This document shows positions 3,019-55,123 of a stretch of 64,000 nucleotides of DNA, piece by piece. The notes beneath the pieces were generated by a model. It worked only from the letters and a program-made list of their open reading frames with translations. It did not search any database and was not told the origin of the DNA. Position numbers and translations under genes: made by a program. Every line of letters begins with the position of its first letter. The first letter of the stretch is position 1. The stretch is from assembly GCF_058153355.1 (NCBI RefSeq), contig NZ_CM177019.1. One strand, 5' to 3'.

Positions 3019-3088
3019 TGCTCACCTCTCAACACTGGTAAAGTATACAGTGATTTCAGAGTTTGAGAAATGCGTAAAGATTCAGCAT

Positions 3089-4012: not shown

Positions 4013-4014
4013 GC

Positions 4015-5607: not shown

Positions 5608-5626
5608 GTTTATATCCGCCTGGTGA

Positions 5627-6094
5627 TTACTGGAAGACCACTTTTTTCACCAGTAAATCCTTATACGGTGCGCTCATTTTGCGACGCTGAAGATCTTGCT
5701 TTAGCGCGTCAGAAATCAGTTTGCGGATGGCAGATATTTTCATGCCGCGCAAATCTTCAAATTTCATTTCCGTCAGGCATTCAACTGCAATACTTTGATA
5801 CAGCGGCTCCTGATTTTTTATTTTTTCCGCTTCTTTATCATTGGCGACCACCATGACTAACTCCGCCGACAAATAATGATCCGCGCCATTTTTATCATGC
5901 AGCGTGACAATGGTTTCCGGTAAGGTCACAAATACGCTTTTGCTCTCATCCAGAGTTTCCACGGATTCCGTCTGCGCGGCGGCAGTCGGTTTTCCTTTTC
6001 CGGCATAGTGATGCCAGACTCCCCATCCTGCTCCGGCACCTACCACTAACGCCAGCACGGCGCTGACCACGCCCGCCACCACGATTTTCTTCAT
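5627..6094 (-). CDS. lafF: FliL-like flagellar basal-body-associated protein
   Basis: 155-aa ORF with N-terminal TM helix and FliL-like sequence. Confidence 0.7.
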   Translation of the reverse strand: MKKIVVAGVVSAVLALVVGAGAGWGVWHHYAGKGKPTAAAQTESVETLDESKSVFVTLPETIVTLHDKNGADHYLSAELVMVVANDKEAEKIKNQEPLYQSIAVECLTEMKFEDLRGMKISAIRKLISDALKQDLQRRKMSAPYKDLLVKKVVFQ

Positions 6095-6101
6095 CTTGCC
6101 T

Positions 6102-7166
6102 TTACACTTTGATTAAAACGGATTCGTTCTGTGGAAATTGAGGCGCATCGTCAAGAAGTAAGGCGGCACTCACCTCTTCCTGCTGATGGCCCGACTGTTG
6201 TTGCTGTTGCTGCGACTGCCCTTCGGAGGAAACCTGTACGTTCACCTCCATAAAATTTTGCGCCGTCAGATGCTGGCGGAGATCGTCGCTAAACTGCTGT
6301 AACGCGCGACAAACCTCGCTTTGGTTCGCGCCGATGTGCACCGTCAGTTTGCCGTTGTCGAGTTGCACGGCGATCTCGAGCTTGCCAAGCGACGGCGGAT
6401 CAAGACGTATCGTGGAGATCTGCTGTTGTTTGTTGAGCTGAAAGTGGATCTGATCTTTCAGAAGCGTCGTCAGCTTTTCGCCCAGTTCGTCCATCGAAAA
6501 CGTGGCTGGTTTGGCGACAATCTCCTGATGATCGCTGACCAGCTCCGGCGTCTTAACCTGCAACACGGCCCTCGCAATAACCGGCTCGCTGTCTGCTACT
6601 TTTTCCGTTTTACGCTCGACCTGCGGGCGCGCGGTCACGCGGTTTGGCTCAGGTTTCGGACGAGCGGGCTGTGCCGATACGCGCGGCTGCGTCGGCGCAA
6701 TGGCATGTAAATCTTCACTGGCGTAAGTCGCCAGTCTGGCCTGCTGCTCCGGTTTCGCCTGTGGCAACTGGCCGACCAGCGCCTGCAACTGCGGCGGCAA
6801 CGGCGTGGGCTCCTGCTGTTGCGTCGGGTATTGTGGCGCGTTTTGCGCCACCGCTTTCGTCAAGTGCTGGATAACCGGCGATGTTGCGACATTTCGCGGC
6901 TGCGGCGTGTCCTGATGCAGCGCGGCAGGTTGCGGAAGTAACAGTGCCAGTAGCGCCTGCATCGCCACCGGATCGTTCTCCTGCGGGCGCGTCGCCTGTT
7001 GCTGGCTGGTTTTAGCGCTATGAACGCGCTCCGCCACCGCCGCGACCGCCATTTTCGGCAGGGTAAACGCGGGCGCGTTTTCACCGCTCACCGGCGGTAA
7101 AATATCCGCTTTCAGCGACGCCGTTTCCGCAAGCGTTCCGAGCGTGGCAAGCAATGCCGGATTCAT
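6102..7166 (-). CDS. lafE: FliK-like hook-length control protein
   Basis: 354-aa Pro/Gln-rich ORF with FliK-type C-terminal domain. Confidence 0.7.
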   Translation of the reverse strand: MNPALLATLGTLAETASLKADILPPVSGENAPAFTLPKMAVAAVAERVHSAKTSQQQATRPQENDPVAMQALLALLLPQPAALHQDTPQPRNVATSPVIQHLTKAVAQNAPQYPTQQQEPTPLPPQLQALVGQLPQAKPEQQARLATYASEDLHAIAPTQPRVSAQPARPKPEPNRVTARPQVERKTEKVADSEPVIARAVLQVKTPELVSDHQEIVAKPATFSMDELGEKLTTLLKDQIHFQLNKQQQISTIRLDPPSLGKLEIAVQLDNGKLTVHIGANQSEVCRALQQFSDDLRQHLTAQNFMEVNVQVSSEGQSQQQQQQSGHQQEEVSAALLLDDAPQFPQNESVLIKV

Positions 7167-7474
7167 GACTTATCCGAAAGTAAATTAATAATTGAGTAGG
7201 CCAGCACGCCTTCCTGATGGCGCTGATGCTGTTCCATACGCGCCTTCAACACTTCTGCACGCTGCTCGCGCCGTTTAATCAGGGCATTAAACGCGCCGTA
7301 CAATTGTGCTTTCACCGCACACAACTGCGCCGCATCGGTTTCCGCCGCTGCGTAATCGTGAAACTGGCGCATCAACTGCTTATGCAGTGCCGGAAGGCGT
7401 CGCCAGCGTTGTTTATCCAGCGATTCATTCATCGCCTCAATCAGCGCGAAAAGTTGCCTGCATTGTTTTTCCAT
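7163..7474 (-). CDS. lafD: Small flagellar chaperone, FliT-like by position
   Basis: 103-aa helical ORF between the FliS-like and FliK-like genes; call is by synteny, sequence similarity is weak. Confidence 0.5.
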   Translation of the reverse strand: MEKQCRQLFALIEAMNESLDKQRWRRLPALHKQLMRQFHDYAAAETDAAQLCAVKAQLYGAFNALIKRREQRAEVLKARMEQHQRHQEGVLAYSIINLLSDKS

Positions 7475-7478
7475 CGTC

Positions 7479-7871
7479 TTAACCCAGCTTGCCCGAAAGC
7501 CCTTCCCAGCCTTCGCGCAGGTTGCTTAAAATCAGCATCACTTCATCGATTTTCTCCGCCGACAGCTCGCCGCTGGCCTCATACAAGCGATAAACGCAGT
7601 GGTCATAGAGGCGCGAAAGATTCACCACCAGCTCGCCGCCGGTTTCAAATTCCAGCGAACTGGTGAGTGCATTGAGAATGTCGATGCATTTATTGATGCT
7701 CTGGGCTTTCTTCTCGAAACGCCGCCCTTCAATATGACTTTTGGCGCGTTCCAGCTCGTCCATCAGGCCAGAAAACAGCACCAGCACCAGTTCCAGAGGC
7801 GAAGCCGCCGCAGTACGCGCCGCGAGATCGATCTCTTTATATTGCGAATAGCCATCCTGTACTTGGTACAT
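7479..7871 (-). CDS. lafC: FliS flagellin-specific chaperone
   Basis: 130-aa ORF with clear FliS-like sequence. Confidence 0.85.
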   Translation of the reverse strand: MYQVQDGYSQYKEIDLAARTAAASPLELVLVLFSGLMDELERAKSHIEGRRFEKKAQSINKCIDILNALTSSLEFETGGELVVNLSRLYDHCVYRLYEASGELSAEKIDEVMLILSNLREGWEGLSGKLG

Positions 7872-7893
7872 CTTTAGGGATATTCCTTCTGAG

Positions 7894-9210
7894 TTACGCG
7901 AATGCCGCCATGCTGGCTTTCATGGTGTACACCTCAACCAGCGTGTTGGTGTACTCCTCCAGATAACGGTCGTAGTTGGCGTTATAGGTATCGGTAAGCT
8001 GATCGCCTTCGTCCTGAATTTTGCTCATCTGATCGTCAATGTTCTGCTGGCGCAGGGTGATGATGCCGTTGCTGGAGTCCGTGTAGGTGTTAATCAGGTC
8101 ATCCATCTGCGCCACCATGCTGTTGTCGCCAACGAAAATAGAGGTCAGACCGTCAGGATTTTTCGCCATTTCGTCGTTGAACTGGTCGGAGTCAATCTGT
8201 AAGTGGCCGTGAGAATCAAGCGTGATGCCATAGTCAACAATCGACACCCCGTTGTAGCTGGCATGGGCGATATCATCGAGCTGGTTCGCCAGTGAGCTGA
8301 GTCCGGCGTCACCCGCAAATACCCCGGCGCTGGTACTGTCATCACCGTGGGTGGTCAACGAATCAACCGTATCAATCAAGGTGTTATAGGCATCAACAAA
8401 GGTCTGTACTTTCTCCTGGCTGGCGCTGGAATCTTCGCTGATGTTAAAGGTAGTGAGATCGCTGTCAGAATCGCTGACTTCGGTGAAAGTCATGGTGACG
8501 CCGGGGATCACATCATCAAAGGTGTTGCTGCTATTGGTGATCTCTGGCCCCGTGGCGCTGCCGAGATGAATAATCGCGTCCTGAGCGGAGGAAACATCCG
8601 TGGCAACGGGCGCGCTGGCGCTGTCGTTGCTGGCGTCATGCCCCGTTACGCTCACCGAAAATGCGCTCTGCGCCCCGGTGCTGTCCGAGGTGAGCATAAT
8701 GGTGGTGGTGCCGTCGGTTTTCACCAGCGCCGCCGACACACCTGGATTGTCATCGGAGTCGTTAATCGCATTCACCAGCTCGCTGGCGTCGATAAAACCG
8801 TCGCCGTCACCGTTCTGATCCGCCGCCGACAGATCAATATCCATGGTGCTGTCGCCCATCGTCAGTTCAAAAGTGCCGGTAGCGGAAAAGGCGTCGTCGC
8901 CCATACTGAACGTGGTCTGCTGCCCCTGCGCCAGTTGCTCAACATAAAATGAGTAGCTTCCCGCCTGCGCCTGCGAGTTAGCGGACACGGTCGCCGAGTC
9001 ATTATTGCTGGTGGCGGCAAACGTTACCGGGCCGTCGGTATCGCTGTTCAGCGCATCGACGGCACTTTGAAAATCGCTCAACGCCGAGCTGAGCGTATCC
9101 AGGCCGCTGCTTTCGGCATCCAGCTCCGTTTGCTTTTCCTGCAAATTTGCCGCCTGAGTGGCGACATCCGCATAAGCGATTTCCTGGGCAATAGTTCTTG
9201 GGTTAATCAT
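7894..9210 (-). CDS. lafB: FliD-like filament cap protein (HAP2)
   Basis: 438-aa ORF with FliD-like N- and C-terminal regions and Ser/Thr/Asp-rich centre. Confidence 0.8.
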   Translation of the reverse strand: MINPRTIAQEIAYADVATQAANLQEKQTELDAESSGLDTLSSALSDFQSAVDALNSDTDGPVTFAATSNNDSATVSANSQAQAGSYSFYVEQLAQGQQTTFSMGDDAFSATGTFELTMGDSTMDIDLSAADQNGDGDGFIDASELVNAINDSDDNPGVSAALVKTDGTTTIMLTSDSTGAQSAFSVSVTGHDASNDSASAPVATDVSSAQDAIIHLGSATGPEITNSSNTFDDVIPGVTMTFTEVSDSDSDLTTFNISEDSSASQEKVQTFVDAYNTLIDTVDSLTTHGDDSTSAGVFAGDAGLSSLANQLDDIAHASYNGVSIVDYGITLDSHGHLQIDSDQFNDEMAKNPDGLTSIFVGDNSMVAQMDDLINTYTDSSNGIITLRQQNIDDQMSKIQDEGDQLTDTYNANYDRYLEEYTNTLVEVYTMKASMAAFA

Positions 9211-9335
9211 TGATGACTCCGGTTAACGATATCAGGTTATTGGCAAAAGGCGTGCCAATAATTTTTATGTGAATAATCAATAGATTGAAAAATGGGCGGA
9301 AAGCGTGTTTCCGGTTCGGCGGAAAAGTGCCTGCC

Positions 9336-9365
9336 GCAAAAAGCACAACACCGCCCGCAGGCGGT
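9336..9365 (-). terminator. Putative rho-independent terminator (GC hairpin plus T-run on the minus strand)
   Basis: Stem accgcc/ggcggt with loop cgca at 9350-9365, followed on the minus strand by CTTTTTG; probably the original lafA terminator, now separated from lafA by REPs and IS621. Confidence 0.4.
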
Positions 9366-9371
9366 ATTGTT

Positions 9372-10881
<1,510 letters not shown>

Positions 10882-10987
10882 CATGCCTGCAATCTGGGAA
10901 ACCGGGGTAGAAAAAAACTTGCAGGCCATAACAGTATCTACGGGTCCGCACCTGTTTTTATGCGTCTGCCCGTTTGTAGGCCCGAAC

Positions 10988-11902
10988 TTACTGCAGCAGG
11001 CTGGAAACCATGCTGGACATGCTGTTGGACTGTTTCAGCATGGTAATACCGGTCTGCATCAGCACCTGCTGTTTGGTCATGTTGGACGCTTCCGTCGCGT
11101 AATCGGTATCCATAATGTTGCCGATAGCGACTTCGGTGTTGTCCTGCATGCTGGTCAGGTTGTTTGCGGTGTCGTTCAGACGGTTGATAGACGCACCCAG
11201 CTTGGACTGGATCTGCGAAACATCATCCATCGCGGTAGAAATGCTGGTGATCATCTGGTTAGCCGAGCCAGATGCGGTCAGTTCAGTACCGCCAGAAACG
11301 CCTGCGGTGCCCGTGGTGTCAGCCTGATCCGCACTGAAGGAGTTGCTGATAGCAGAAAGATCCGTCACCAGCGTGTTCAGCTGGCTTGAAATATTCACGG
11401 TCATGGTGTCGGAAGATTCCGCTCCCACCTGGAAAGTTACTGCGCTCTGGAACAGACCGTCAGTACCGGTGTTGCTGGTACCGGAAACACCGAACAGGTT
11501 GGTGCCGCCATAAGTGGTGTTTTGCAGCATGTCAGACATCTGCTGACCCAGTTCGTCGTATTCGTCCTGCATCGCCTGCAGATCGTCGTCGCTGTAGGTG
11601 CCGTTCGCTGCCTGAGTTGACAGGTCTTTCATACGACCCAGCACATCAGACATTTCATCGAACATACTGTCGGCGGTTTGCAGCATCGCCGTTGCATCAT
11701 TAATGTTGCTCAGTGCCACACCCATACCGCTGGACTGTGCAGTCAGACGGTTAGCAATCTGTTTGCCTGCGGCGTCATCGGCAGAAGAGTTAATCCGGTT
11801 ACCTGTTGCCAGGCGTTCCATAGATGTAGACAAAGAAGAGCTGCTTTTGCTGATTGCATTAACGGCGGCCATTGAGGCGTTATTGGTGTTAATAGATAAC
11901 AT
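10988..11902 (-). CDS. lafA: Lateral flagellin
   Basis: ORF with flagellin N-terminus (MLSINTNNAS...RINSSADDAAGKQIANR) and conserved C-terminus; AAGGAG RBS before ATG at 11902; the track ORF extends to 12001. Confidence 0.85.
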   Translation of the reverse strand: MLSINTNNASMAAVNAISKSSSSLSTSMERLATGNRINSSADDAAGKQIANRLTAQSSGMGVALSNINDATAMLQTADSMFDEMSDVLGRMKDLSTQAANGTYSDDDLQAMQDEYDELGQQMSDMLQNTTYGGTNLFGVSGTSNTGTDGLFQSAVTFQVGAESSDTMTVNISSQLNTLVTDLSAISNSFSADQADTTGTAGVSGGTELTASGSANQMITSISTAMDDVSQIQSKLGASINRLNDTANNLTSMQDNTEVAIGNIMDTDYATEASNMTKQQVLMQTGITMLKQSNSMSSMVSSLLQ

Positions 11903-12388
11903 GATACTGCTCCTTGGGATTAATCGTTTTCGTTTCGATACCCTGTAAAAACGACACCTCAGGAGCAAACTTAAAATCACTATGAAAAAAAATTTCGCCA
12001 CGTATTATCTGATGCCACTTTTAGCTAAAAAAAGCAGAGTTTAAATTCAGATAAAAAGATTATTAGCAATATCTGCCACATGGCCAGGTATCAAAATATG
12101 TCTTTATCAATTGCTTGATATAGTTAAGATTGTCATCAATTAACGCGTTTTCTTCACAATGTACTGATGCCAAAATTTACATTGCGTTGCAAATAGTACA
12201 CATTTGGCTATTGTACCTGTCCTGTCATTTCGTTACATTCCCACGCCATATAGTGATTAAGAATAATCCTATTACCATAAAATATTAATTATCACGCAGA
12301 AAAATCATCTTCTCAGGGACGTATAAGACTGTGCTTTATGTAAAGCACTATCAGGAACCATTTATCCCTTGCTAAGGTAAACTCAACT
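11903..12388. promoter_or_regulatory. AT-rich divergent intergenic control region between the flagellin gene and the ToxR-like regulator gene
   Basis: 486-bp non-coding AT-rich region between divergently oriented genes; no consensus promoter could be pinned down by eye. Confidence 0.3.
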
Positions 12389-13231
12389 ATGAGTATTATT
12401 ATCAACAACTGGCGGATGGACCCGTCACTCAATGCCTTAATACATTGCGAAACGGGTGAAACACGTCGTCTCGGCGAATACCATTTTATTTTGCTGGAAA
12501 CATTAGCAAAAAATGCCGATGTGGTTTTATCACGATCTTATTTATGTGCCGAAGTATGGAAGAACCGCATTGTCGGCGGTAACAGCCTGCCGACGGCGAT
12601 CCACGCTCTGCGCGTTGCCATTGATGATGACGGCAAGCAACAGAACATTATTAAAACTATCCCGAAAAAAGGGTACCTGTGCAATAAAGAATATGTGTCT
12701 TTGCCGGAGTCATCGCCTGCAGAAGCGCTGATTATTACCGACCAGATACAGGATACAGCCCCAGAAGAGATATCTTCGACAACACCGCCTGTACCTGTTA
12801 GAAAAAAACATAAAGGACTGATGGGGTTAGCGTTGGCCGCAGCTGTTATATTTATTGGCTCGACCGTGGGGTATTCACACTTGAAAAGTACACCTGACGC
12901 CCCGCAACTGGTAAAAGAGTCAATTAACAGTCCAAGAATAAAAATATTTCATTTAACTTCTGCTGGAGAAAATAATTCCGTACCGTTACTGTCACAAACC
13001 CTCGCACCAGGAAAAGACAAACTCGATAATTTATTGTCAGCGCATAATATGACAATGACAACCTATTATAAATATGTTCGTAACCGACTGGAGAGTGATA
13101 TTGTTCTGCGCAACCAGTGCAATGGTAGCTGGCAATTAACCTTTAATGTGGAAGGCTGGCAGAACAGTGATATTAATAGCACGATGTATCAGAATTTAGA
13201 GAAGTTGTTAAAGACTGTGCAGAAGTGCTGA
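12389..13231 (+). CDS. ToxR/CadC-like transmembrane transcriptional regulator (winged-helix domain, single TM segment, periplasmic domain)
   Basis: 280-aa ORF; N-terminal OmpR/PhoB-type winged-helix motif, hydrophobic segment LMGLALAAAVIFIGSTVGY; may correspond to the Flag-2 transmembrane regulator. Confidence 0.6.
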   Translation: MSIIINNWRMDPSLNALIHCETGETRRLGEYHFILLETLAKNADVVLSRSYLCAEVWKNRIVGGNSLPTAIHALRVAIDDDGKQQNIIKTIPKKGYLCNKEYVSLPESSPAEALIITDQIQDTAPEEISSTTPPVPVRKKHKGLMGLALAAAVIFIGSTVGYSHLKSTPDAPQLVKESINSPRIKIFHLTSAGENNSVPLLSQTLAPGKDKLDNLLSAHNMTMTTYYKYVRNRLESDIVLRNQCNGSWQLTFNVEGWQNSDINSTMYQNLEKLLKTVQKC

Positions 13232-13246
13232 TGAGTGCCAATATAT

Positions 13247-13283
13247 GCCGGATGCGACGCTAAAGGCGTCTTATCCGGCCTAC
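13247..13283. repeat. REP element
   Basis: gccggatgcgacgctaaaggcgtcttatccggcctac palindromic unit. Confidence 0.8.
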
Positions 13284-13534
13284 GAAAATCCCGAATGAAA
13301 TCAATCGGAATTGCTGATAGTTTTAGTTATTGGTAACTCTAGCTTTTTATTAATGACAGTTTGCCGGAGTCGTTCTGCTTTTTTTATTATTCGCCTACGA
13401 CTTTCAGGGCTTTGCTTATCCATCAGTTGCTTGAGAGTAGCCATTTCATTCCTTTTTTAACCCGCAGAGTTACAGCATATTCTGCACTGAAATGATTTTT
13501 TACGACAACCTCATTTGATTGATTTTCAATAACC

Positions 13535-14512
13535 CTACCCCAATAAATTCCTCACTGTCTGGCTGGAAATTCGCGCCTGACCGTTCACCGCCTGCAATAA
13601 AACCTGATAGTTATGATTGGCGCTGTCGAGCACACCGCCGAGATTTTCCGACGCCTGTACCGCGCTTTCTGTCTGCGGAAAGCGGGACATGCCGTCGATC
13701 AACTGGCGGGCTTTTTCCTGCTGCACCGCCATCTTCGCGCGCTGCTGATTAATGTTTTCTAACGTCTGAGAAATCCCCGCCCCGCCCTGTTGCAGGCTTT
13801 GCGCTAACCGCTCGGCTTCAGAGGGTTCGGCAAAGGTTTTTAGCGGCATAAACGCTGATTTATCGCCATCGGTGCGCACGCTTAAGGTGCGCTCGATATG
13901 GGGCCATTGTTTTTCAGTGGTGGAGAAACTGATGCCATCCGCTTGCTGATGCAGCTGCACGCCTACGCGGCGCAGGGCGTTGGTCAGCCGTGTCTGGTAC
14001 TGCCCGGCGTTATCATCCTCAGACAGCATCACCGCCGAAAGCTGGGTCTGCCGCCCGTCAGAAACGCTGAACATCCGCGTTCCCGGTGTGGGGTTGTTGA
14101 CGAGATTTGCCAGATCCGGCGAGTGAAAGGTCACCCGCGCTTCGCCCTGTAACACCGGCTGCAACTGGCGGTCCACCGCGCCGCCGGAAAGTGCGGTGCG
14201 TTTATCCAGCATCTGCGTGAGCGCCGTACCCTGCGCCTGCCCGCTCTTACGCTGGCTATGACGATAATCGAGCAACTGCTGTTCCAGTTGCCCGAGATAG
14301 TGATCCGCCTGCTGCAAGGTGGTGAGCTGGTCGTTAAGCTGCACGCTGTAACGCTGCGGGCGAGTGGTAATCAGCGGTGAGACCGGATATTCACTCGCCG
14401 TCGCCGGGAGCTTTTGCCGCACCGCCTGAGTGGGCGCAATGGTTGACGACGATACCGCGGCGCTATGCGCGCCGCCGGTGGCGAGTGATGAAGATGTAAG
14501 TCCGACCTGCAT
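13535..14512 (-). CDS. Flagellar-associated protein of unknown function with a flagellin/HAP-like C-terminal helix
   Basis: 325-aa ORF between the FlgL-like gene and the regulator; C-terminus resembles axial-protein export helices. Confidence 0.45.
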   Translation of the reverse strand: MQVGLTSSSLATGGAHSAAVSSSTIAPTQAVRQKLPATASEYPVSPLITTRPQRYSVQLNDQLTTLQQADHYLGQLEQQLLDYRHSQRKSGQAQGTALTQMLDKRTALSGGAVDRQLQPVLQGEARVTFHSPDLANLVNNPTPGTRMFSVSDGRQTQLSAVMLSEDDNAGQYQTRLTNALRRVGVQLHQQADGISFSTTEKQWPHIERTLSVRTDGDKSAFMPLKTFAEPSEAERLAQSLQQGGAGISQTLENINQQRAKMAVQQEKARQLIDGMSRFPQTESAVQASENLGGVLDSANHNYQVLLQAVNGQARISSQTVRNLLG

Positions 14513-14528
14513 ACTGTTCCTGAAAGAG

Positions 14529-15458
14529 TTAGAGAACGCTGAACAAATTCAACTCACTCACCTTCGAGTAAGTCTTGAGGGTAGCTTCCATTGCCACTTC
14601 CAGTCCGGTAAAGGTGATCGACGCCGGGCCGTAATCGAGATCCTGCAATGAACCAATCAACTCATCATTAGATGTCGAGATATCGGTCTGTGCATCGCTC
14701 AACATCGACATGGTGTTTTGTGTCTCGCCGAGCGACGCAATCGAGGCGTTGAGGTCGTCCGAGGCGGTGTCCACCACATTAACGGCGTTCTGAATATCGC
14801 TTTGTACCTGCGGATCTGCCGGGTCAACGTTAGGGTCTTGCAACTCCTGAGAGAGCGAATTGAGCGTGTTGAGTACATCTAAATTGCTGCCAAAGAAATC
14901 ACTCGCCGCCACGTTGGTATCTACTTCGACGCCGTTCGACACCGTAGTCTGGCGATGGTCGCTGTTACCCTGATAGCTGTAGCTATCGGTCACGCCATCA
15001 CCGTCATCGTCCACCGCCACAATCGGCGGTTGATCGTTGATGGTGCCGCCAAAGACGTAATTCCCGTCTTCATCCTGATAGTTGAGCGCCGCCACCATCG
15101 ATTCGGTGAGCGACTCAATATCCTGCCCAAGGCTTGCCAGCGAATTGGCGGTATTGGTGCCGTTCGCTGCTTCCAGCAGGTCGTCGCGCACCGCCAGCAG
15201 GCTGTTGTTGACGCCATCGAGAATCGACTCCTGCTGGCTTAAGCCCGCCGACGCGGAGTCGATATTGCTCTGATACTGCTCAATCGCCGACTGCTGGCGG
15301 TTCAACTGGGTGATTCGTGTGGCGGCGATAGGGTCATCTGATGGCTGCAAAATTTCCTTGCCGGTTGCCATCTGCTCGACCACGTGCGCCAGTTCGCCAG
15401 AAAGATTATTAAAGCTTTGCGTCATCGAGACGTAGGTTTGTTGAGTGGTTACTCGCAT
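14529..15458 (-). CDS. lfgL: FlgL-like hook-associated protein 3
   Basis: FlgL-like sequence; start chosen at MRVTTQQTY (the track ORF extends to 15482). Confidence 0.75.
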   Translation of the reverse strand: MRVTTQQTYVSMTQSFNNLSGELAHVVEQMATGKEILQPSDDPIAATRITQLNRQQSAIEQYQSNIDSASAGLSQQESILDGVNNSLLAVRDDLLEAANGTNTANSLASLGQDIESLTESMVAALNYQDEDGNYVFGGTINDQPPIVAVDDDGDGVTDSYSYQGNSDHRQTTVSNGVEVDTNVAASDFFGSNLDVLNTLNSLSQELQDPNVDPADPQVQSDIQNAVNVVDTASDDLNASIASLGETQNTMSMLSDAQTDISTSNDELIGSLQDLDYGPASITFTGLEVAMEATLKTYSKVSELNLFSVL

Positions 15459-15472
15459 TTTCGCGCTCCCGC

Positions 15473-16849
15473 TTAGCTGCACATTTCCAGCACCGAATCA
15501 AAAATCTCGGCCCCGGCGGAAATGACTTTCAGATTGGCTTCATAAATTTGTTGATAGGTGATCAGGTTCACCGCCTCTTCGTCCATGCTGACGCCGCTGA
15601 CACTGCTCTGCTGGTTTTGCGCCTCAGAATAAACATTGGACGCGGCAGTCACTTCGGTCTGGTTTTGCTGAGTGTAAATGCCGATATTGCTGATGATTGA
15701 CGAGCACGCTTGCCCGACCGTCACGCTGCCGAGGTTGGCTATCTCCAGCGGCTCAGTGGAGATGTTGATCAGCGCCTGCAGGTTGTCACTGTTGCCGCTT
15801 TCGTCCGGCGAACTGGAGAACGCCAGTTCATCAGCGGTGATATCCGGGTTAACGGTCAGCGGGCCATCGGCATTACTGGCATCGTAAATAAACAGCGGCT
15901 CGCCGGGGTTACCGTTGAGATCGTAGCCCTGCGCCAGCTGGTTGTTGACCGCATCGGCAAACTGCGACGCCATGCTGTTGATGGTGTCGGTCAGCGGCGT
16001 CAGGACGTCGTTTTGATAATCAAAAAGTGCGCCTAATGAACCGCCGGTGTCGGTGGTCATCGTCGAGGTGGTTCCGGCGAAGGTCAGCGACATGGTCGGC
16101 GTGCCATCGGCGTTGGTTTCCAGCGCGATGGTCGAGCTTTGCTGCCCGCTCACCAGCGGCTGACCGTTTTGCAGGGTAACGTTGTAGTTGCCCTGGTCGT
16201 CGATATTGACCTGCACATCCATCATTCCGCTGAGTTCTTCCACCATCTGGTCACGGGCGTCGTACAGCGCGGAGGCGTTATCCCCGTTGGCTTCGGCCTG
16301 GGCGATTTGCTGGTTATAGCTGGCGATGCCGCTGGTGAGGGTGTTAATTTGCGACACCATCGCCTGCTGCTGGCTGATGATTTCCGTGCTTTGCGAGTCG
16401 ATGTAATCCAGCGTGTTATCGATACGCAACGACAGCGCCCCGGCTTCGCTGATCACCTGCTCGCGCAGGGCAGAATCATCGGGGCTGGTGGTCGCTTCGT
16501 TGAGGGCCGCGAAAAAGTTATCGAACCCGCCGCTCAGGCTGCTGTTATCGTCGCTCAATACCGCTTCCAGTTGCGTGAGATACCCTTGCTGGGTGTTGTA
16601 ATAGCCGTAATCGCTGGCGGCATACCACACCTGATTCACCTGATACTGGTTGGAGACGCGACGAATGCTGTCGACCTGCACACCGTTTCCGGCGCTGTTC
16701 GGCGACCCGCCGCTGGCACCGATAGTGCTGATCTCCGCCACCTGGCGGGTGTAGCCCGTGGTCATGGCGTTAGCGGTGTTTTGCGCCGTGACGTTCAGCT
16801 CCACCTGCGCGGTTGATGCGCCGCTGTAGCCGATGTTAATCATGTCCAT
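15473..16849 (-). CDS. lfgK: FlgK-like hook-associated protein 1
   Basis: 458-aa ORF with FlgK-like N-terminus (NTANAMTTGYTRQ) and C-terminus. Confidence 0.8.
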   Translation of the reverse strand: MDMINIGYSGASTAQVELNVTAQNTANAMTTGYTRQVAEISTIGASGGSPNSAGNGVQVDSIRRVSNQYQVNQVWYAASDYGYYNTQQGYLTQLEAVLSDDNSSLSGGFDNFFAALNEATTSPDDSALREQVISEAGALSLRIDNTLDYIDSQSTEIISQQQAMVSQINTLTSGIASYNQQIAQAEANGDNASALYDARDQMVEELSGMMDVQVNIDDQGNYNVTLQNGQPLVSGQQSSTIALETNADGTPTMSLTFAGTTSTMTTDTGGSLGALFDYQNDVLTPLTDTINSMASQFADAVNNQLAQGYDLNGNPGEPLFIYDASNADGPLTVNPDITADELAFSSSPDESGNSDNLQALINISTEPLEIANLGSVTVGQACSSIISNIGIYTQQNQTEVTAASNVYSEAQNQQSSVSGVSMDEEAVNLITYQQIYEANLKVISAGAEIFDSVLEMCS

Positions 16850-17042
16850 GTTGGATCCTTACCGGTAAATCGTGCCGGTTAAAAGCGGCGTGAAGTTGGA
16901 GATTCTTAAGTTCCGTAAACCGGGCGCCAGACACCGGATGCAGCCTGCATACGGGCACAAACATAAAAATATGTGCGAACTCGTAGATACTGTTATGGCC
17001 TGCAAGTTTTTTTCTACCCCGGTTTCCCAGATTGCAGGCATG

Positions 17043-18269
<1,227 letters not shown>

Positions 18270-18307
18270 TGATAAGCGTAGCGCATCAGGCAATCTGGCA
18301 CCAGACA

Positions 18308-19021
18308 TCACGCCGCATCACTGTCGGCATCGGGTACGCCAAACTGGCTAATCATGGTGAACGGCACTTCGCCTACACCGGCAACGTTAAGCACCGGAGA
18401 GCTGCCGTCGAGCGGGATGCGCACATCTTCCACTTCGCCGGAGACTTCAATCGGTACTTCTTCTTCCCCGGTATTGGTCACCACCGAGACGTCGTAATCG
18501 CCCGGCGGGATGCCGTAATCCGCCGGGTTAATCGAGAAATCCACTTGGCCTGGCCCAACCGACGAACTCCCTTCCGGGATCAGCGAGACGGTGTAGTCAT
18601 CGCCCGCAGCATCGGTAAAGTGGAGATCGGCGGTGGTACAGGCGTCGTCCAGCGTGGCGCGACCGTTAATGGTCTGGTCACTCACCTGCAAGGCGGTGGT
18701 CTGCACCATAATGTCGTCGCCCACCAGGTTGCCGAGCGCCATCACCTGAATGTTGCTCATCAGCACCGCGTTGGTATTGGCCTGCACGCTCATCTCTTCC
18801 ATCATCGCCACCTGCGCCATCGACGAAAGCTGGTCGATATATTCGGTGGCATCGGTCGGGTCGGTCGGGTCCTGGTTTTGGATCTCAGCGACAAACAGCG
18901 TCAGGAAAGTATCGACGGGCGAGCTATCGCTGCTGCTTGTCGTGTCGCTGGCTGCCACATTATTGCTTTCCGCCGTGGCGGTCGGTTGCGGCGATTGCGC
19001 ATTCAGCGCCAGGGTATTCAT
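18308..19021 (-). CDS. lfgD: FlgD-like hook capping/scaffold protein
   Basis: 237-aa ORF with FlgD N-terminal motif (FLTLFVAEIQNQDPTDP) and C-terminal beta domain. Confidence 0.75.
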   Translation of the reverse strand: MNTLALNAQSPQPTATAESNNVAASDTTSSSDSSPVDTFLTLFVAEIQNQDPTDPTDATEYIDQLSSMAQVAMMEEMSVQANTNAVLMSNIQVMALGNLVGDDIMVQTTALQVSDQTINGRATLDDACTTADLHFTDAAGDDYTVSLIPEGSSSVGPGQVDFSINPADYGIPPGDYDVSVVTNTGEEEVPIEVSGEVEDVRIPLDGSSPVLNVAGVGEVPFTMISQFGVPDADSDAA

Positions 19022-25096: not shown

Positions 25097-25108
25097 ACCA
25101 CAGAAGTG

Positions 25109-25205
<97 letters not shown>

Positions 25206-25422
25206 CGAACAGCGCACTTATCTACCCTTCGATTTTAAATACATCTCTTTATGGCTGGTGAATCGGTAAAGTCGTAGATTGTGGGGGAGCGATCTTTATG
25301 AATTCTGAAAAAAACCTGAATCTTGCTAAACATATTGCTTATCATAAATATAGGTTACACACTATAAAAATTACTGCGTAATTTAACATTTTGTCTAAAA
25401 ATGATAGAGCATAAACGATAAC

Positions 25423-26244
25423 ATGACTTATAATAAAAAAGTAACTTCCGGTACAACAAGCCAGAAACAAAACAACATTGTCACTCAAAAAATATCTCGC
25501 CCAAAGGAATTGTTTCTATTATTTTGGGTTGATGAGTCCGATGATAGCCGACGTTCTATTTTTGAAGAAGCATGTCTGACGCGTTATTTCAATATCCTTT
25601 ACTCCCCCGAGTATAAAAAAGAAACACAGATAGTTTATCATTTATCAATTAACACATTTAATCAAATCAAAGAAATATTAGAAATCTTTATAAACAAGAA
25701 TGGAGGTAAAACTAAAGCAAAGGTTAAAGAAGTCAGTTTATTCTCACATGGGGGGCCAATTCATGGTCCTACAACCTCAAACTCTATAAATACACCTTCC
25801 GTGCCTAAATACCCACAACAAATGGACATATCCGGAGGATGGGATTCAATTGATTTTAACTGGTCAAACAATGCTATGTTTGTTATGTATGGTTGTCGCA
25901 CTAGTTATGCAAGTGATGATTCAGGACAAGGTTTTGCCAGTAAATTATCCCTATTAGATAATTTTAAGGACGTGAATGTCTGGGGTCAAACAGAAAGTAC
26001 TTATCCATCTTATTTCCCAGATATCAGGACAACGTCGATTATGAGGTCAATAAATATAGGTTGGTCTTTTTCACCAACATACATGGTTGCCAATTCTGAA
26101 GGTCAAGGATGGGATGCATTATTCCCGGATGATCGAAATCCATTAAAAGCTCTCCCTATGCAGTGTTATAATAATGGGACATTGATTTTAACCTGCGATC
26201 AAAGCAATTTTAATGATCACCGGAAGAATAAATCAAATGATTAG
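25423..26244 (+). CDS. Hypothetical protein, AT-rich gene embedded in the flagellar locus
   Basis: 273-aa ORF; strongly AT-biased compared with flanking genes; no motif recognised with confidence. Confidence 0.5.
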   Translation: MTYNKKVTSGTTSQKQNNIVTQKISRPKELFLLFWVDESDDSRRSIFEEACLTRYFNILYSPEYKKETQIVYHLSINTFNQIKEILEIFINKNGGKTKAKVKEVSLFSHGGPIHGPTTSNSINTPSVPKYPQQMDISGGWDSIDFNWSNNAMFVMYGCRTSYASDDSGQGFASKLSLLDNFKDVNVWGQTESTYPSYFPDIRTTSIMRSINIGWSFSPTYMVANSEGQGWDALFPDDRNPLKALPMQCYNNGTLILTCDQSNFNDHRKNKSND

Positions 26245-26791
26245 CATTGTATTGAGAAGCATTGTATTGAGAAGCTTTATTTTATTATTCATAATAATAG
26301 TGTATCCGGATTATAATAAAAACCCACCTGCCTTTGAAGTATATGGGGAAAATGACATACTTAAGGATATGGTTATTAATATGAAAACTTATAGATACCA
26401 TAGTAGGGAAAACTCTTCCCCCACAGCTATAGTGCAAACCATCCTTTTTAAAGGAAATATACAGCAAGTTTTTGAAAGCAATGACATGGGTGGTGCGAGC
26501 TTCTTTTTTTCTTATAACAATAAGGTTGAAACGCTGGTAACAGACGCTTTCTTTTTAAATAAAAAATTAGACAAACTGCATGATGCAAATATTTTTGAGG
26601 TTATAAAGCATAAGGAAAACATCGTTATTAGATATTACAAGTGCAAAATTGAATATATGCAAAGAGAAAAATTTATCGAAATAGAGATATCAACAAACAA
26701 AAATAGTTATTTTAACAAGAATGGAATAAAACAAAAAGATACAAATAAATATAACACATATTTCTTCAATTACTTTGAGTCTCAAAAATAA
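26237..26791 (+). CDS. Hypothetical protein with hydrophobic N-terminus, AT-rich, coupled to the preceding ORF
   Basis: ~184-aa ORF (MISIVLRSIVLRSFILLFIIIVY...), 8-nt overlap with the upstream ORF; the track ORF begins at 26213. Confidence 0.45.
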   Translation: MISIVLRSIVLRSFILLFIIIVYPDYNKNPPAFEVYGENDILKDMVINMKTYRYHSRENSSPTAIVQTILFKGNIQQVFESNDMGGASFFFSYNNKVETLVTDAFFLNKKLDKLHDANIFEVIKHKENIVIRYYKCKIEYMQREKFIEIEISTNKNSYFNKNGIKQKDTNKYNTYFFNYFESQK

Positions 26792-26794
26792 ATT

Positions 26795-27199
26795 TTATTT
26801 TGTCATGCGCGCCCTCCTAATCACCTCAATAATCCCCGTCGTCGACACTGACGGCGTGCGGGGGAAATAGACCACCTCACAAATATACGCGAAGCTATCA
26901 AACTTCCCCGCCCAGTCATCGCCCATCACCAAAACATCCGCACTGTAACCGCGCAGATATTCCGCTTTCAGCGCCAGCGATTCCTCGAGAAATACGCCAT
27001 CCACGCACGCCAGCCCGGCGATAATCGCCATGCGGTCATCCTGAGGGTAAACCGGTGCCCTGCCCTTTTTAGCAATGTTCAGGGCGTCAGACGATACGCC
27101 GACCAGCAGCCGTTCGCCCAGCGTGCGGGCGCGTTGTAAAAGGAGCAGATGACCGACATGAAACACATCGAAGGTGCCGAAGGTGATGACCGTTTTCAT
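26795..27199 (-). CDS. Cytidylyltransferase, TagD-like (glycerol-3-phosphate cytidylyltransferase family)
   Basis: Start MKTVITFGTFDVFHVGH (HxGH nucleotidyltransferase motif); 2 nt after the FliJ-like stop, so probably co-transcribed with lafK-lfiEFGHIJ. Confidence 0.7.
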   Translation of the reverse strand: MKTVITFGTFDVFHVGHLLLLQRARTLGERLLVGVSSDALNIAKKGRAPVYPQDDRMAIIAGLACVDGVFLEESLALKAEYLRGYSADVLVMGDDWAGKFDSFAYICEVVYFPRTPSVSTTGIIEVIRRARMTK

Positions 27200-28976: not shown

Positions 28977-29679
28977 TCTGCGTCTCCGGCGTCAGCGTCT
29001 CTTGCAGCGCGGTCATGCATTGTTCAAGGCGATGCTCGCAGCCGATATCCAGTTCTGATTTATCGGTGATCACCCGGCATTCCCCCGGCGGCAAATCCGG
29101 CGAAGGCGTCAGCCCCCATTCGCTGACCTTTTCCGGCACCGCGTCGCGCAGGCGGTTAAACTCTTCCGTGCTCAACATCACTTGCAGGGTTTCCGGCATC
29201 GCCGGGAAGGCCGCCAGCGCCTCTTCCACCAGCGCCAGTAACTGCGTCGGTTGCAGCGCCAGTTCGCAGCGAATCACCTGGCGGGTGACTTTTTCCACCA
29301 GTTGCAGCAAATCTTCCCGCTGTTTACGTTCGATATGGGCGAGGAAGTCGTTCACTTTACCGCTGATGGCTTCCAGCGGCTGCGCCGCCTCAATAAATTT
29401 CTTGCGCCCTTCCTGCTGCCCGGCGAGGCTGCCTTCGGTGTAGCCCTGACGTTGCCCCTCGGCAAAACCTTGCTGATGACCTTCGCTAAAGCCCTGCTCC
29501 TGCCCCTCGGTCATGCCCTGAGCAAACCCTTTTTGCAGCCCTTCCTGAAAACCGTCCATCAACTGGCGCTGGTAATCGGCGGCGCTAATGCTGGCAGTGA
29601 GCGGTTCTCCGGTCACCGCACGCTGGCGCGGCGGGAAACGGTGCAGGCGATAGCGCCCGCGCAGTGTTTCAATGGTCAT
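28969..29679 (-). CDS. lfiH: FliH-like export ATPase regulator
   Basis: 236-aa ORF with Gly/Gln-rich repeats, between FliG-like and FliI-like genes. Confidence 0.7.
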   Translation of the reverse strand: MTIETLRGRYRLHRFPPRQRAVTGEPLTASISAADYQRQLMDGFQEGLQKGFAQGMTEGQEQGFSEGHQQGFAEGQRQGYTEGSLAGQQEGRKKFIEAAQPLEAISGKVNDFLAHIERKQREDLLQLVEKVTRQVIRCELALQPTQLLALVEEALAAFPAMPETLQVMLSTEEFNRLRDAVPEKVSEWGLTPSPDLPPGECRVITDKSELDIGCEHRLEQCMTALQETLTPETQSE

Positions 29680-29682
29680 GGG

Positions 29683-30693
29683 TTACTCCGCCGTCTGTTC
29701 CGCAAAGAGCTGTAGCTGAAGTTCGCCCGCCTCTTCCAGTTCACGGGCGATACCCATGATTTCGCGGCGGATCTGTTCGATACGGCTGACCGGCACCGGC
29801 CCCAGACGCGCAGTGATCGCTTCCAGTTGCTGCACCTGACGTTTTGGCATCACCGCGTAAATGGAGCGACGTAACAGAGCTTCGGTGCCTTTCAGCGCCA
29901 CCGCCCAGTCTTCCATCGGCACTTCGTCGAGCAGGCGTCGGCGCACCTCTTCGTTCTGGCGACTGAGGATAAAGAAGTCGTACATCTCATCCTGCAACTG
30001 CTCCAGTACGTCTTCGTCGCGCTCGCGCATCTGGTCGAGGATCACCTGCTGGTTGCCCTGGAAGCGGTTGACAATATCCGCCGCCTGTTTGATGCCTTTC
30101 ACCTTCGAGCCGTGCTCTGAAAGCACCGACAGGCCACGTTCGATCAGACGATCCAGTTCATCCACCACGTCGCGGTTGACGTCGTTGAGTTTCGCTACCC
30201 GGTAAAGAATTTCGTTTTGCACCGATTCGTTGAGATAAGAGAGCACCGCTGCCGAGATTTCCGGCGTCAGAAACGCGAGGAATACCGCCTGCAATTGCAG
30301 ATGCTCTTCGGAGATCAGCATCGCCAGCTGGCGCGGTTCCACCCATTGCAGGCGCGCCATCCGCGAGCGGATCTCATCGCCGTAGATGCCGTTGATCACG
30401 CTGCTGGCGATCTCGGTGCCCAACGCCTTGTTAAGAATGCCCTGCAACATGGATCGCGATGCACCGTTGATCCCGCTCTGTTCGCGGAATTCATCAAAGA
30501 AGTTATTGATCACCTTGCGCGCCATGCTGGTTTTGACGCCGGAAAGCCGCGCCATGTTTTCGCTCAGGCGCACTACTTCTTCGCGGCTGAGTTTTTGCAT
30601 CACCGTTGCCGCCGCTTCTTCGCCCAGACACAGCAGCAGGATCGCCGCCTGTTCCAGGTAGCTGTTGCTCTTATTTATTGTCAATTCGCTCAT
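29683..30693 (-). CDS. lfiG: FliG-like rotor/switch protein
   Basis: FliG-like sequence; start chosen at MSELTINKSN (the track ORF extends to 30726). Confidence 0.8.
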   Translation of the reverse strand: MSELTINKSNSYLEQAAILLLCLGEEAAATVMQKLSREEVVRLSENMARLSGVKTSMARKVINNFFDEFREQSGINGASRSMLQGILNKALGTEIASSVINGIYGDEIRSRMARLQWVEPRQLAMLISEEHLQLQAVFLAFLTPEISAAVLSYLNESVQNEILYRVAKLNDVNRDVVDELDRLIERGLSVLSEHGSKVKGIKQAADIVNRFQGNQQVILDQMRERDEDVLEQLQDEMYDFFILSRQNEEVRRRLLDEVPMEDWAVALKGTEALLRRSIYAVMPKRQVQQLEAITARLGPVPVSRIEQIRREIMGIARELEEAGELQLQLFAEQTAE

Positions 30694-49077: not shown

Positions 49078-49079
49078 GT

Positions 49080-49300
49080 GGGTGTTGTGTTTAGGACCGG
49101 GGAGAGTCGGGGTAAGACTACGAAAGCCCGCTCTCCTGCGACCACTTTTATCATAGGAGTGTGGAAGCGCTTTTCCATCAATTGCGATGACGTCTTTATC
49201 ATTTGATGAATGGCAATCTCGCATCCAGTTAATAAAGCATTCGTGAAATTATACTGAACGGATACAAGACATAACTCTAATTATGGTGCCGTGAACAGGA
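49080..49300 (-). mobile_element. ISAs1-family (H-repeat) transposase remnant, yafF-like
   Basis: Degenerate fragments ([40 protein letters not shown]) homologous to the second remnant at 50800-51340. Confidence 0.65.
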
Positions 49301-49348
49301 TTACCATTTTCAAAATTACGATATTATTTGCAGTAATTATGTTATTAA

Positions 49349-49861: not shown

Positions 49862-49927
49862 GTTATAGAATAATGATGCTATAAATCATCATTAATGTTC
49901 AATTATTTAATCACACAGTTTAAAAAA

Positions 49928-53153: not shown

Positions 53154-55123
<1,970 letters not shown>

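What the first reader, a model, noticed from the sequence alone, without database searches (positions are those of the whole stretch)
25423..26791. AT-rich pair of overlapping unknown ORFs inserted in the middle of the flagellar locus
The two ORFs (273 aa and ~184 aa, 8-nt overlap) are far more AT-rich than the flanking flagellar and glycosyltransferase genes and show no flagellar motif. They follow a REP pair, and the second has a hydrophobic N-terminus. The arrangement looks like horizontally acquired cargo, possibly an effector-immunity or toxin-immunity pair, or a flagellin-modification accessory.
Basis: seen in the sequence. Interest (0 to 1): 0.6.

Follow-up and report, generated by a model that had tools for sequence, protein, structure and literature searches.

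The report
Orphan caspase-fold toxin–immunity cassette
The two AT-rich genes in the lateral-flagella locus are not flagellar genes but a horizontally acquired bacterial-warfare cassette: a predicted caspase-fold cysteine-protease toxin of the type fired by type VI secretion systems, followed by its membrane-anchored immunity protein.

Summary
ORF1 (25423-26244, 273 aa) and ORF2 (26237-26791, 184 aa) overlap by 8 nt. They have 35% and 28% GC against 54-61% in the flanking Flag-2 genes.

The effector-immunity guess is supported and can be sharpened.
- ORF1 belongs to an unnamed family of 357 clusters. The domain sits at the C-terminal tip of Rhs proteins, directly after the Rhs core, and occasionally on Hcp.
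- As a free-standing gene it lies directly behind vgrG in 5 of 5 loci examined, including a complete Psychrobacter T6SS cluster.
- The AlphaFold model (pLDDT 93) has a caspase-like (clan CD) fold. Its best solved match is the P. aeruginosa T6SS effector Tce1 (DUF4347). His109 and Cys158 are at least 90% conserved and sit at the dyad positions.
- ORF2 homologues always follow ORF1 homologues, diverge faster, and carry signal-anchor or lipoprotein N-termini. About 16 E. coli genomes keep ORF2 after losing ORF1.

Only 144 of about 1278 Flag-2-positive E. coli genomes carry the cassette. It lies in VR1, the known Flag-2 cargo hotspot. Relatives sit at three unrelated chromosomal sites in other enterobacteria.

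No cognate VgrG is adjacent. Substrate, delivery and toxicity are untested. This is a new member of a known kind.

The parts
25100..25210 (.). REP (repetitive extragenic palindrome) pair after the glycosyltransferase stop codon. It lies in the conserved flank, not in the cassette.
   Evidence: Inverted repeats at 25123-25136/25171-25184 and 25175-25188/25191-25204. The segment recurs elsewhere in E. coli loci and gives a median of 22 hits per genome.
25312..26812 (+). Variable AT-rich cassette: the segment that is replaced by unrelated DNA in E. coli EC958.
   Evidence: In a blastn comparison with EC958, homology ends at window 25311 and resumes at 26813. GC is 0.28-0.38 here against 0.55-0.60 in the flanks.
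25423..26244 (+). ORF1, 273 aa: predicted caspase-fold (clan CD-like) cysteine-peptidase toxin of a T6SS/Rhs polymorphic-toxin family.
25423..25503 (+). N-terminal 27 residues of ORF1. They are predicted disordered yet conserved in the free-standing family members and are absent from the Rhs-fused versions. Inferred to be a recruitment peptide for the secretion spike.
   Evidence: pLDDT is 53-82 over residues 1-30. M1, K6, T8, G10, N18, Q22, I24 and R26 are invariant among the close homologues. In fused proteins the match starts at about query position 27-29.
25744..25749 (+). Codons for Ser108-His109. His109 is the predicted catalytic histidine, lying 2 residues after strand 99-107.
   Evidence: Invariant among 7 close homologues and conserved in at least 90% of 63. 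The position follows from the secondary structure of the model.
25891..25896 (+). Codons for Gly157-Cys158. Cys158 is the predicted catalytic cysteine, lying 2 residues after strand 147-156.
   Evidence: G157 is invariant and C158 is conserved in at least 90% of 63 sequences. The 49-residue His-Cys spacing resembles Tce1 (54), Tce2 (50) and TcdB (45) as given in PMC13323088.
26237..26791 (+). ORF2, 184 aa: predicted cognate immunity protein. It has an N-terminal membrane anchor and a beta-sandwich domain inferred to face the periplasm.
   Evidence: A gene of this family lies downstream of every ORF1 homologue examined; it overlaps the ORF1 homologue in all but E. coli MEW, whose annotated start looks truncated. 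It diverges faster than ORF1. Homologues carry lipobox or signal-peptide N-termini. The AlphaFold model has pLDDT 80.8 with a helix over residues 2-22. It is retained without ORF1 in about 16 E. coli genomes.
26243..26272 (+). 15-bp tandem duplication (AGCATTGTATTGAGA twice) in the ORF2 membrane anchor. It adds SIVLR compared with the E. coli SMS-3-5 allele.
   Evidence: Read directly from the sequence and from the alignment with L003.

Best explanation
ORF1 and ORF2 form an orphan effector-immunity cassette of the type VI secretion / polymorphic-toxin world. It was acquired horizontally from a low-GC donor and inserted in variable region 1 (lfiJ-lfgN) of the Escherichia Flag-2 lateral-flagella locus.

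Shown here:
- ORF1 carries a toxin domain that elsewhere forms the C-terminal tip of Rhs proteins, or is encoded directly behind vgrG.
- Its predicted fold is caspase-like, with a conserved His109/Cys158 pair at the dyad positions.
- ORF2 is its conserved, overlapping, fast-diverging downstream partner, with an N-terminal anchor or lipoprotein signal.

Inferred:
- ORF1 is a cysteine peptidase carried on a VgrG spike, possibly docked through its conserved disordered N-terminal 27 residues.
- It is fired into neighbouring bacteria and cleaves an envelope or periplasmic substrate.
- ORF2 sits on the periplasmic face of the inner membrane of the producer and blocks ORF1 by binding it.
- In this genome no matching vgrG is adjacent. 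The pair therefore either uses a VgrG encoded elsewhere or persists mainly because ORF2 protects against competitors that fire the same toxin.

The pair has no role in building or modifying the flagellum.
For: Toxin-domain status of ORF1:
- A profile search finds 357 representatives. Among the top 150, 85 have N-terminal extensions and 75 of those carry the domain at the extreme C-terminus.
- The RHS-associated core (TIGR03696) ends 1-22 residues before the domain in P0062, P0143, P0149, P0125, P0119, P0103, P0135 and P0145.
- Two fusions are to Hcp/TssD and one is to LysM.

vgrG linkage:
- In L006 the order is vgrG, a 41%-identical homologue, then an overlapping ORF.
- In Psychrobacter L015 the order is tssM-tagF-ompA-vgrG, a 40%-identical homologue (E 2e-54), then an ORF2-family gene.
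- L009, L010 and L011 end their upstream genes with the same VgrG C-terminal motif.

Immunity role of ORF2:
- Synteny holds in every locus examined.
- Identity to the window falls faster for ORF2 than for ORF1: 54 vs 71%, 35 vs 66% and 31 vs 43%.
- Homologues carry lipobox or signal sequences.
- ORF2 is kept alone after deletion of ORF1 in 88COLEC and about 15 other genomes. No genome has ORF1 without ORF2.

Mobility and non-flagellar nature:
- 144 of about 1278 Flag-2-positive E. coli genomes carry it.
- Relatives sit at other sites: nfo-fruA, tas-lplT and yncG-ISAs1.
- VR1 is a published cargo hotspot (PMC6993521).

Other: both genes are under purifying selection. The same window encodes Hcp and VgrG.
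Against: - No vgrG, PAAR or adaptor gene is adjacent in the window.
- The only VgrG in the window (60682-62718) lacks the C-terminal extension that precedes ORF1 homologues elsewhere.
- The window's ORF2 has lost the lipobox cysteine present in some homologues.
- No convincing sigma-70 promoter lies upstream of ORF1.
- The nearest characterised relatives, Tce1 and Tce2, are Hcp-loaded, lack immunity genes and are suspected to be anti-eukaryotic.
- The Pfam DUF4347 match is weak: E 2.4e-4, and only 3 of 63 family members match.
- ORF2's fold matches nothing informative.
- Catalysis, toxicity, secretion and neutralisation are all untested.
Confidence: 0.75

Rival explanations
1. The pair is a decaying remnant. 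It is an acquired cassette, probably silenced because of its AT-richness, that no longer delivers a toxin. Only ORF2 matters, as an orphan immunity gene against competitors, or neither gene matters.
For: No adjacent vgrG, and no matching VgrG extension anywhere in the window. No clear promoter. About 16 E. coli genomes have already lost ORF1 but keep ORF2. The site is a mosaic of other small secreted-protein genes in other strains.
Against: ORF1 is full length with all conserved residues. It shows dN/dS 0.15-0.21 between Flag-2 alleles, the same as ORF2. 128 of the 144 carriers keep both genes.
Confidence: 0.15
2. ORF1 is an anti-eukaryotic protease effector like P. aeruginosa Tce1/Tce2. ORF2 is then a chaperone, adaptor or unrelated membrane protein rather than an immunity protein.
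For: The best structural match is Tce1. Tce2 is toxic in yeast, and the H3-T6SS is mainly anti-eukaryotic.
Against: A conserved downstream gene with a signal, lipoprotein or anchor N-terminus, faster divergence and retention on its own are hallmarks of immunity proteins. T6SS chaperones and adaptors are cytoplasmic (established knowledge). Rhs-CT and vgrG-linked cassettes with downstream partners are typically antibacterial (PMC3482391).
Confidence: 0.07
3. The pair is a flagellar accessory. It modifies or processes Flag-2 flagellin, or it is a substrate of the flagellar type III export apparatus.
For: It lies between flagellin-glycosylation genes (the glycosyltransferase and the tagD-like gene) and on the same strand as the upstream lfgN-to-glycosyltransferase genes. 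VR1 mostly encodes flagellin-modification genes.
Against: It is present in only about 11% of Flag-2-positive E. coli. Homologous pairs lie at non-flagellar sites and behind vgrG. The same domain forms Rhs toxin tips.
Confidence: 0.02
4. The pair is a type II toxin-antitoxin or anti-phage defence pair that acts inside the producing cell.
For: It is a small, overlapping two-gene AT-rich cassette in a hotspot that also takes up restriction-modification genes and prophages.
Against: No PADLOC hit even at E of 1 or less. The second gene is membrane- or periplasm-targeted, not a cytoplasmic antitoxin. The first gene's domain is secreted-toxin cargo elsewhere.
Confidence: 0.02

Closest known systems
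Tce1 (PA0256) and Tce2, DUF4347 putative cysteine-protease effectors of the P. aeruginosa H3-T6SS (PMC13323088; PDB 9qpe)
   Different: Only 13% identity, and no HMMER-level similarity to the PDB sequence. Tce1 and Tce2 are loaded inside Hcp3 rings, have no immunity gene and are suspected to act on eukaryotes. The ORF1 family is VgrG- or Rhs-linked (a few members are fused to Hcp) and always has a downstream envelope-targeted partner. ORF1 also has about 100 extra C-terminal residues (170-268), including an invariant FNDH motif.
'Tox-Caspase' class of polymorphic-toxin domains (Zhang et al. 2012, PMC3482391)
   Same: Caspase-like fold with H and C catalytic residues. It is the C-terminal-most domain of Rhs-type polymorphic toxins, and that paper predicts such versions act as toxins rather than only as releasing peptidases.
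   Different: That class was defined computationally and broadly. No experiment, no named immunity family and no T6SS cargo (free-standing, vgrG-linked) version with a lipoprotein partner was described in the passages read. I could not check whether ORF1's subfamily was in their alignments.
Clan CD peptidases: caspases, metacaspases, legumain/GPI8, gingipains, clostripain (C11), the MARTX/TcdA/TcdB cysteine-protease domain (C80) and CHAT
   Different: Sequence identity is 7-15%. No match to any of their Pfam or NCBIfam models. Activity and P1 specificity are unknown.
vgrG-Rhs-Imm26 cargo in Flag-2 VR1 of Escherichia fergusonii YH17130 (De Maayer et al. 2020, PMC6993521)
   Same: T6SS toxin-immunity cargo inserted in the same Flag-2 variable region.
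   Different: That island brings its own vgrG and a full Rhs protein with a different toxin and immunity family. Here only a free-standing toxin and immunity gene are present.

Membership tests
Polymorphic-toxin C-terminal domain (Rhs-CT type) | The domain is the C-terminal-most module, directly after the Rhs-associated core (DPxG end), in multi-domain toxins. | tested here: met
   The TIGR03696 core ends 1-22 residues before the ORF1-like domain in 8 of 13 long proteins scanned. In 75 of 85 extended proteins the domain lies at the extreme C-terminus.
Polymorphic-toxin C-terminal domain (Rhs-CT type) | A cognate immunity gene lies immediately downstream and varies together with the toxin. | tested here: met
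   An ORF2-family gene follows the ORF1 homologue in all loci examined: L001, L003, L006-L011, L015, L016, L020 and L024. Its identity falls faster than that of ORF1.
T6SS cargo effector | Genetic linkage to vgrG, hcp, PAAR or a T6SS cluster. | tested here: inconclusive
   Met for homologues: 5 of 5 vgrG-linked loci, including a full Psychrobacter T6SS cluster, plus 2 Hcp fusions. Not met for the window copy itself, where the nearest vgrG is 34 kb away and lacks the matching C-terminal extension.
T6SS cargo effector | T6SS-dependent secretion, and toxicity that the immunity protein neutralises. | not testable with these tools
   Needs secretome, competition and co-expression experiments.
Clan CD (caspase-like) cysteine peptidases | Caspase/hemoglobinase alpha-beta-alpha fold. 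| tested here: met
Clan CD (caspase-like) cysteine peptidases | A His-then-Cys catalytic dyad at the ends of two adjacent central strands, conserved across the family. | tested here: met
   H109 follows strand 99-107 and C158 follows strand 147-156. Both are conserved in at least 90% of 63 sequences and are invariant in 36 fusion proteins.
Clan CD (caspase-like) cysteine peptidases | Peptide-bond hydrolysis. | not testable with these tools
   Needs biochemistry.
Pfam DUF4347 (PF14252) | A significant match to the family HMM. | tested here: inconclusive
   ORF1 scores E 2.4e-4 and 21.4 bits over 92 of 164 model positions. Only 3 of 63 family members reach E of 1e-3 or less. Several structural neighbours in AFDB are annotated DUF4347. 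The family is best described as a divergent sister group that the current model does not capture.
Flag-2 core or flagellin-modification genes | Present across Flag-2 loci and restricted to flagellar contexts. | tested here: not met
   144 of about 1278 Flag-2-positive E. coli genomes carry it. Homologues lie at nfo-fruA, tas-lplT, yncG-ISAs1 and behind vgrG.
Known anti-phage defence systems / type II toxin-antitoxin | A match to defence-system models, and a cytoplasmic antitoxin. | tested here: not met
   No PADLOC hit at E of 1 or less. ORF2 has an N-terminal membrane anchor, and homologues have lipoboxes.

The most novel reading that the evidence does not exclude
The ORF1/ORF2 family is the first antibacterial, envelope-acting caspase-fold (clan CD) T6SS effector family with a dedicated periplasmic lipoprotein immunity protein. 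This would be a peptidase class not yet shown to kill bacteria from the periplasm. Its two-gene cassettes spread as orphans into enterobacterial hotspots such as Flag-2 VR1, where they are kept under selection without their own VgrG.
Probability: 0.45. Interest if true: 0.55.

Novelty: new member of a known kind. Interest (0 to 1): 0.42.

Why it matters
It assigns a function class to two "hypothetical proteins" annotated in about 140 complete E. coli genomes, and to a family of 357 clusters that has no working Pfam or NCBIfam model.

It links that family to the recently solved Tce1 effector fold. It also supplies what Tce1 and Tce2 lack: a candidate immunity partner and an antibacterial context. 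This makes the activity of caspase-fold T6SS effectors directly testable in E. coli.

It shows that the AT-rich part of Flag-2 VR1 is a hotspot for warfare and immunity cargo rather than only for flagellin-modification genes. That matters when inferring flagellar glycosylation pathways from gene content.

Tried and rejected
Searches that gave nothing useful:
- NCBIfam and PADLOC scans of both ORFs gave no hits; PHROGs gave only a non-significant hit for ORF2 at E 0.23.
- Pfam on ORF2 gave nothing meaningful.
- A profile search of the ORF1 family against PDB sequences gave no significant hit. The Tce1 link appears only at fold level.
With A1 it returned only 2 loci, Superficieibacter and a Prevotellaceae MAG, so it gave little taxonomic breadth.
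- The promoter and terminator scan was no better than shuffled sequence and gave no convincing promoter upstream of ORF1.
- Pfam on the other small VR1 genes of EC958 and 88COLEC found nothing, so the idea of an immunity island for those neighbours rests only on their signal peptides.

Ideas considered and rejected:
- An alpha/beta-hydrolase reading of the 'FSHGG' motif. The residue two positions before Ser108 is Leu or Ile, not a small residue, and the fold is caspase-like.
- An L,D-transpeptidase-like H...GC motif. The His-Cys spacing of 49 residues and the fold both disagree.

Limitation: the His-Cys distance could not be measured because model coordinates are not exposed.

Full report
**1. 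The observation**

ORF1 is 25423-26244 (+, 273 aa). ORF2 ends at 26791. Its homologues align with the ATG at 26237 (184 aa), which overlaps the ORF1 stop by 8 nt. The same 8-nt overlap is present in the Superficieibacter, L007 and L008 copies.

GC is 0.354 for ORF1 and 0.283 for ORF2, with GC3 about 0.30. The six flanking Flag-2 genes have GC 0.54-0.61 and GC3 0.62-0.72. The sliding profile drops from about 0.57 to 0.28-0.38 exactly over 25200-26800.

The REP pair is real. There are inverted repeats at 25123-25204, and this stretch gives a median of 22 hits per E. coli genome.

ORF2 has an N-terminal hydrophobic helix over residues 2-22.

Both ORFs are under purifying selection, with dN/dS 0.15-0.25 in unsaturated comparisons.

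**2. Where we are**

The window is an Escherichia chromosome region running from dinB and lafU through the Flag-2 locus. It is about 98% identical to a few strains deposited as E. coli and 90-95% identical to most.

The pair lies between a fliB-like lysine methylase plus an 815-aa glycosyltransferase on the left and a tagD-like cytidylyltransferase, fliJ, fliI and fliH on the right. This is variable region 1 (lfiJ-lfgN) of Flag-2. De Maayer et al. 2020 described it as a hotspot for cargo genes with deviant GC. One E. fergusonii strain carries a vgrG-Rhs-Imm26 island there (PMC6993521).

**3. The cassette is variable cargo, not part of Flag-2**

- About 1278 of 5426 complete E. coli genomes have the flanking genes. 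Only 144 have ORF2 and 128 have ORF1.
- Against EC958, homology stops at window 25311 and resumes at 26813. EC958 has 2.7 kb of unrelated AT-rich DNA there.
- E. coli W has a Mu-like prophage at the site.
- AHM8C160RI carries a second allele (73% and 53% amino-acid identity) plus a fic gene.
- 88COLEC keeps only the last 19 codons of ORF1 and an intact ORF2, preceded by two other small genes with signal peptides.
- Related pairs lie between nfo and fruA in Superficieibacter electus (66% identity), between tas and lplT in an unnamed enterobacterium, and between ISAs1 copies next to yncG in E. coli MEW (46%).

**4. What ORF1 is**

Curated libraries are nearly silent. The only hit is Pfam DUF4347 at E 2.4e-4.

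A profile search of 1.84 billion representatives finds 357 relatives. Among the top 150, 85 have N-terminal extensions, and in 75 of these the domain sits at the extreme C-terminus.

In eight long proteins (613-3576 aa) the RHS-associated core ends 1-22 residues before the domain. The consensus of mid-size members shows '...IDPxG...' directly before it, which I read from memory as the Rhs core cleavage motif. Two members are Hcp fusions and one carries LysM. This is the architecture of a polymorphic-toxin C-terminal domain.

Free-standing homologues sit directly behind vgrG:
- L006 has a complete VgrG (TIGR03361, E 7e-182) whose stop abuts the homologue's start.
- Psychrobacter L015 has tssM-tagF-ompA-vgrG followed by a 40%-identical homologue (E 2e-54).
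- L009, L010 and L011 have truncated upstream genes that end in the same VgrG C-terminal motif, DDDxxPYANTxY...GxTDxxG.

**5. Fold and active site**

With a 63-sequence alignment, AlphaFold gives pLDDT 93.4 and pTM 0.89.

His109 lies two residues after strand 99-107. Cys158 lies two residues after strand 147-156. Both are conserved in at least 90% of 63 sequences and invariant in 36 fusion proteins. The 49-residue spacing resembles Tce1 (H186/C240), Tce2 (H65/C115) and TcdB (PMC13323088).

Residues 1-27 are predicted disordered yet conserved among free-standing members, and they are absent from fused ones. I infer that they are a docking peptide for the spike.

The 'Tox-Caspase' class of polymorphic-toxin domains was already proposed by Zhang et al. 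2012 (PMC3482391).

**6. What ORF2 is**

An ORF2-family gene follows every ORF1 homologue examined, overlapping it in all but E. coli MEW, whose annotated start looks truncated. It always diverges faster than ORF1: 54 vs 71%, 35 vs 66% and 31 vs 43%.

Homologues start with a basic N-terminus and a hydrophobic stretch. Several of these end in a lipobox (LTGC, LIGC, ICGC, LPGC) and others look like a signal peptide or an uncleaved anchor. The window allele has no cysteine and is predicted to be a single-helix anchor followed by a beta-sandwich (pLDDT 80.8). The fold has no informative match.

By the positive-inside rule (inference), the domain faces the periplasm. About 16 E. coli genomes retain ORF2 without ORF1, and none has the reverse. 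All of this fits an immunity protein and points to an envelope target for ORF1.

**7. Mechanism**

Shown:
- the toxin-domain architecture;
- vgrG linkage of homologues;
- the caspase-like fold with a conserved His/Cys pair;
- a conserved envelope-targeted partner;
- horizontal, variable distribution.

Inferred:
- cysteine-peptidase activity;
- delivery on a VgrG spike;
- action in the periplasm;
- neutralisation by ORF2 binding.

No cognate VgrG is adjacent in this genome. The window does encode hcp (62935-63453) and vgrG (60682-62718) with their own AT-rich cargo, but that VgrG lacks the C-terminal extension. ORF1 is therefore either loaded in trans by another VgrG, or the cassette persists chiefly for immunity. 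dN/dS of about 0.2 on ORF1 argues that the toxin is still functional.

**8. Rivals**

- A flagellar accessory role is contradicted by the distribution and by the contexts of homologues.
- A toxin-antitoxin or defence role is contradicted by the envelope-targeted partner and by the absence of any PADLOC hit.
- An anti-eukaryotic Tce-like role with a non-immunity partner is possible but fits the ORF2 data poorly.
- A silenced remnant cannot be excluded. No clear promoter was found.

**9. Verdict**

The pair is a new, uncharacterised member of a known kind: caspase-fold polymorphic toxins and DUF4347-like T6SS effectors. It sits as an orphan cassette in the known Flag-2 cargo hotspot.

Interest is moderate. 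The family is large and unmodelled, and it would give the first immunity-paired, probably antibacterial, example of this fold. The class and the hotspot are both already described.

Noticed in passing
window 56047-63453 (- strand): A T6SS hcp-vgrG island. It holds hcp (62935-63453) and vgrG (60682-62718; TIGR03361, E 7e-161), followed by AT-rich cargo with GC 0.33-0.37. The cargo comprises a 433-aa protein with a Peptidase_M23 domain (59359-60660), a 341-aa protein with a lysozyme/chitinase-like 'GRGMMQLTWAGNYEEY' motif seen by eye (58383-59408), and three further ORFs (57764-58414, 56646-57665, 56047-56649). Two of those three have signal peptides and are probable immunity genes. None has an NCBIfam hit.
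   Followed up: partly
window 26243-26272: A 15-bp tandem duplication (AGCATTGTATTGAGA twice) inside the ORF2 membrane anchor. It adds SIVLR relative to the E. coli SMS-3-5 allele. The window and SMS-3-5 alleles also lack the lipobox cysteine found in other family members.
   Followed up: partly
L023 (E. coli 88COLEC) 1757-4111; L004 (EC958) 7400-9788: The same VR1 site in other E. coli strains holds a mosaic of other AT-rich small genes. These are a 126-aa Cys-rich protein shared by both strains, 166-aa and 212-aa proteins with signal peptides in 88COLEC, and 182-aa and 115-aa proteins plus about 1 kb of apparently decayed sequence in EC958. No Pfam family matches. The arrangement looks like an array of orphan immunity-type genes.
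   Followed up: partly
L008 (E. coli AHM8C160RI) 7518-9114: Next to the second allele of the pair there is a duplicated fragment of the tagD-like gene and a complete fic (protein adenylyltransferase) gene. This shows repeated insertion at the same junction.
   Followed up: no
L024 (E. coli MEW) 5425-9032: A third, 46%-identical version of the pair is bracketed by an intact ISAs1-family transposase gene and a fragment of another, next to yncG. This may be a composite-transposon-like route by which the cassette moves.
   Followed up: no
window 48600-55123: A further AT-rich, mobile-element-rich stretch. It holds a PFL_4695-family ICE protein (49349-49861), an ISAs1 transposase fragment (50802-51143), and what looks by eye like an IS21-type transposase with a helper ORF (53951-55123 and 53154-53954; the two were not scanned).
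   Followed up: no
window 11600-13600: Another GC dip (about 0.40) inside the Flag-2 locus. It contains a 280-aa ORF (12389-13231) with a CadC/OmpR-type winged-helix DNA-binding domain. It may be the second Flag-2 variable region or a lateral-flagella regulator.
   Followed up: no
L015 (Psychrobacter) 9693-18666: Downstream of the vgrG-effector-immunity module lie several vgrG C-terminal fragments (DUF2345), each followed by small unknown genes. This is an array of alternative spike-tip and effector cassettes. One fragment (at about 18341) again carries the GxTDxxG motif.
   Followed up: no
NZ_CP104632.1 (record typed as an E. coli plasmid, 100,861 bp) 29191-29702: ORF2 (92.8% identity) and the Flag-2 flanking genes also hit a record typed as a plasmid. 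This is either a chromosomal fragment mis-assigned in the assembly or a Flag-2 segment on a plasmid.
   Followed up: no
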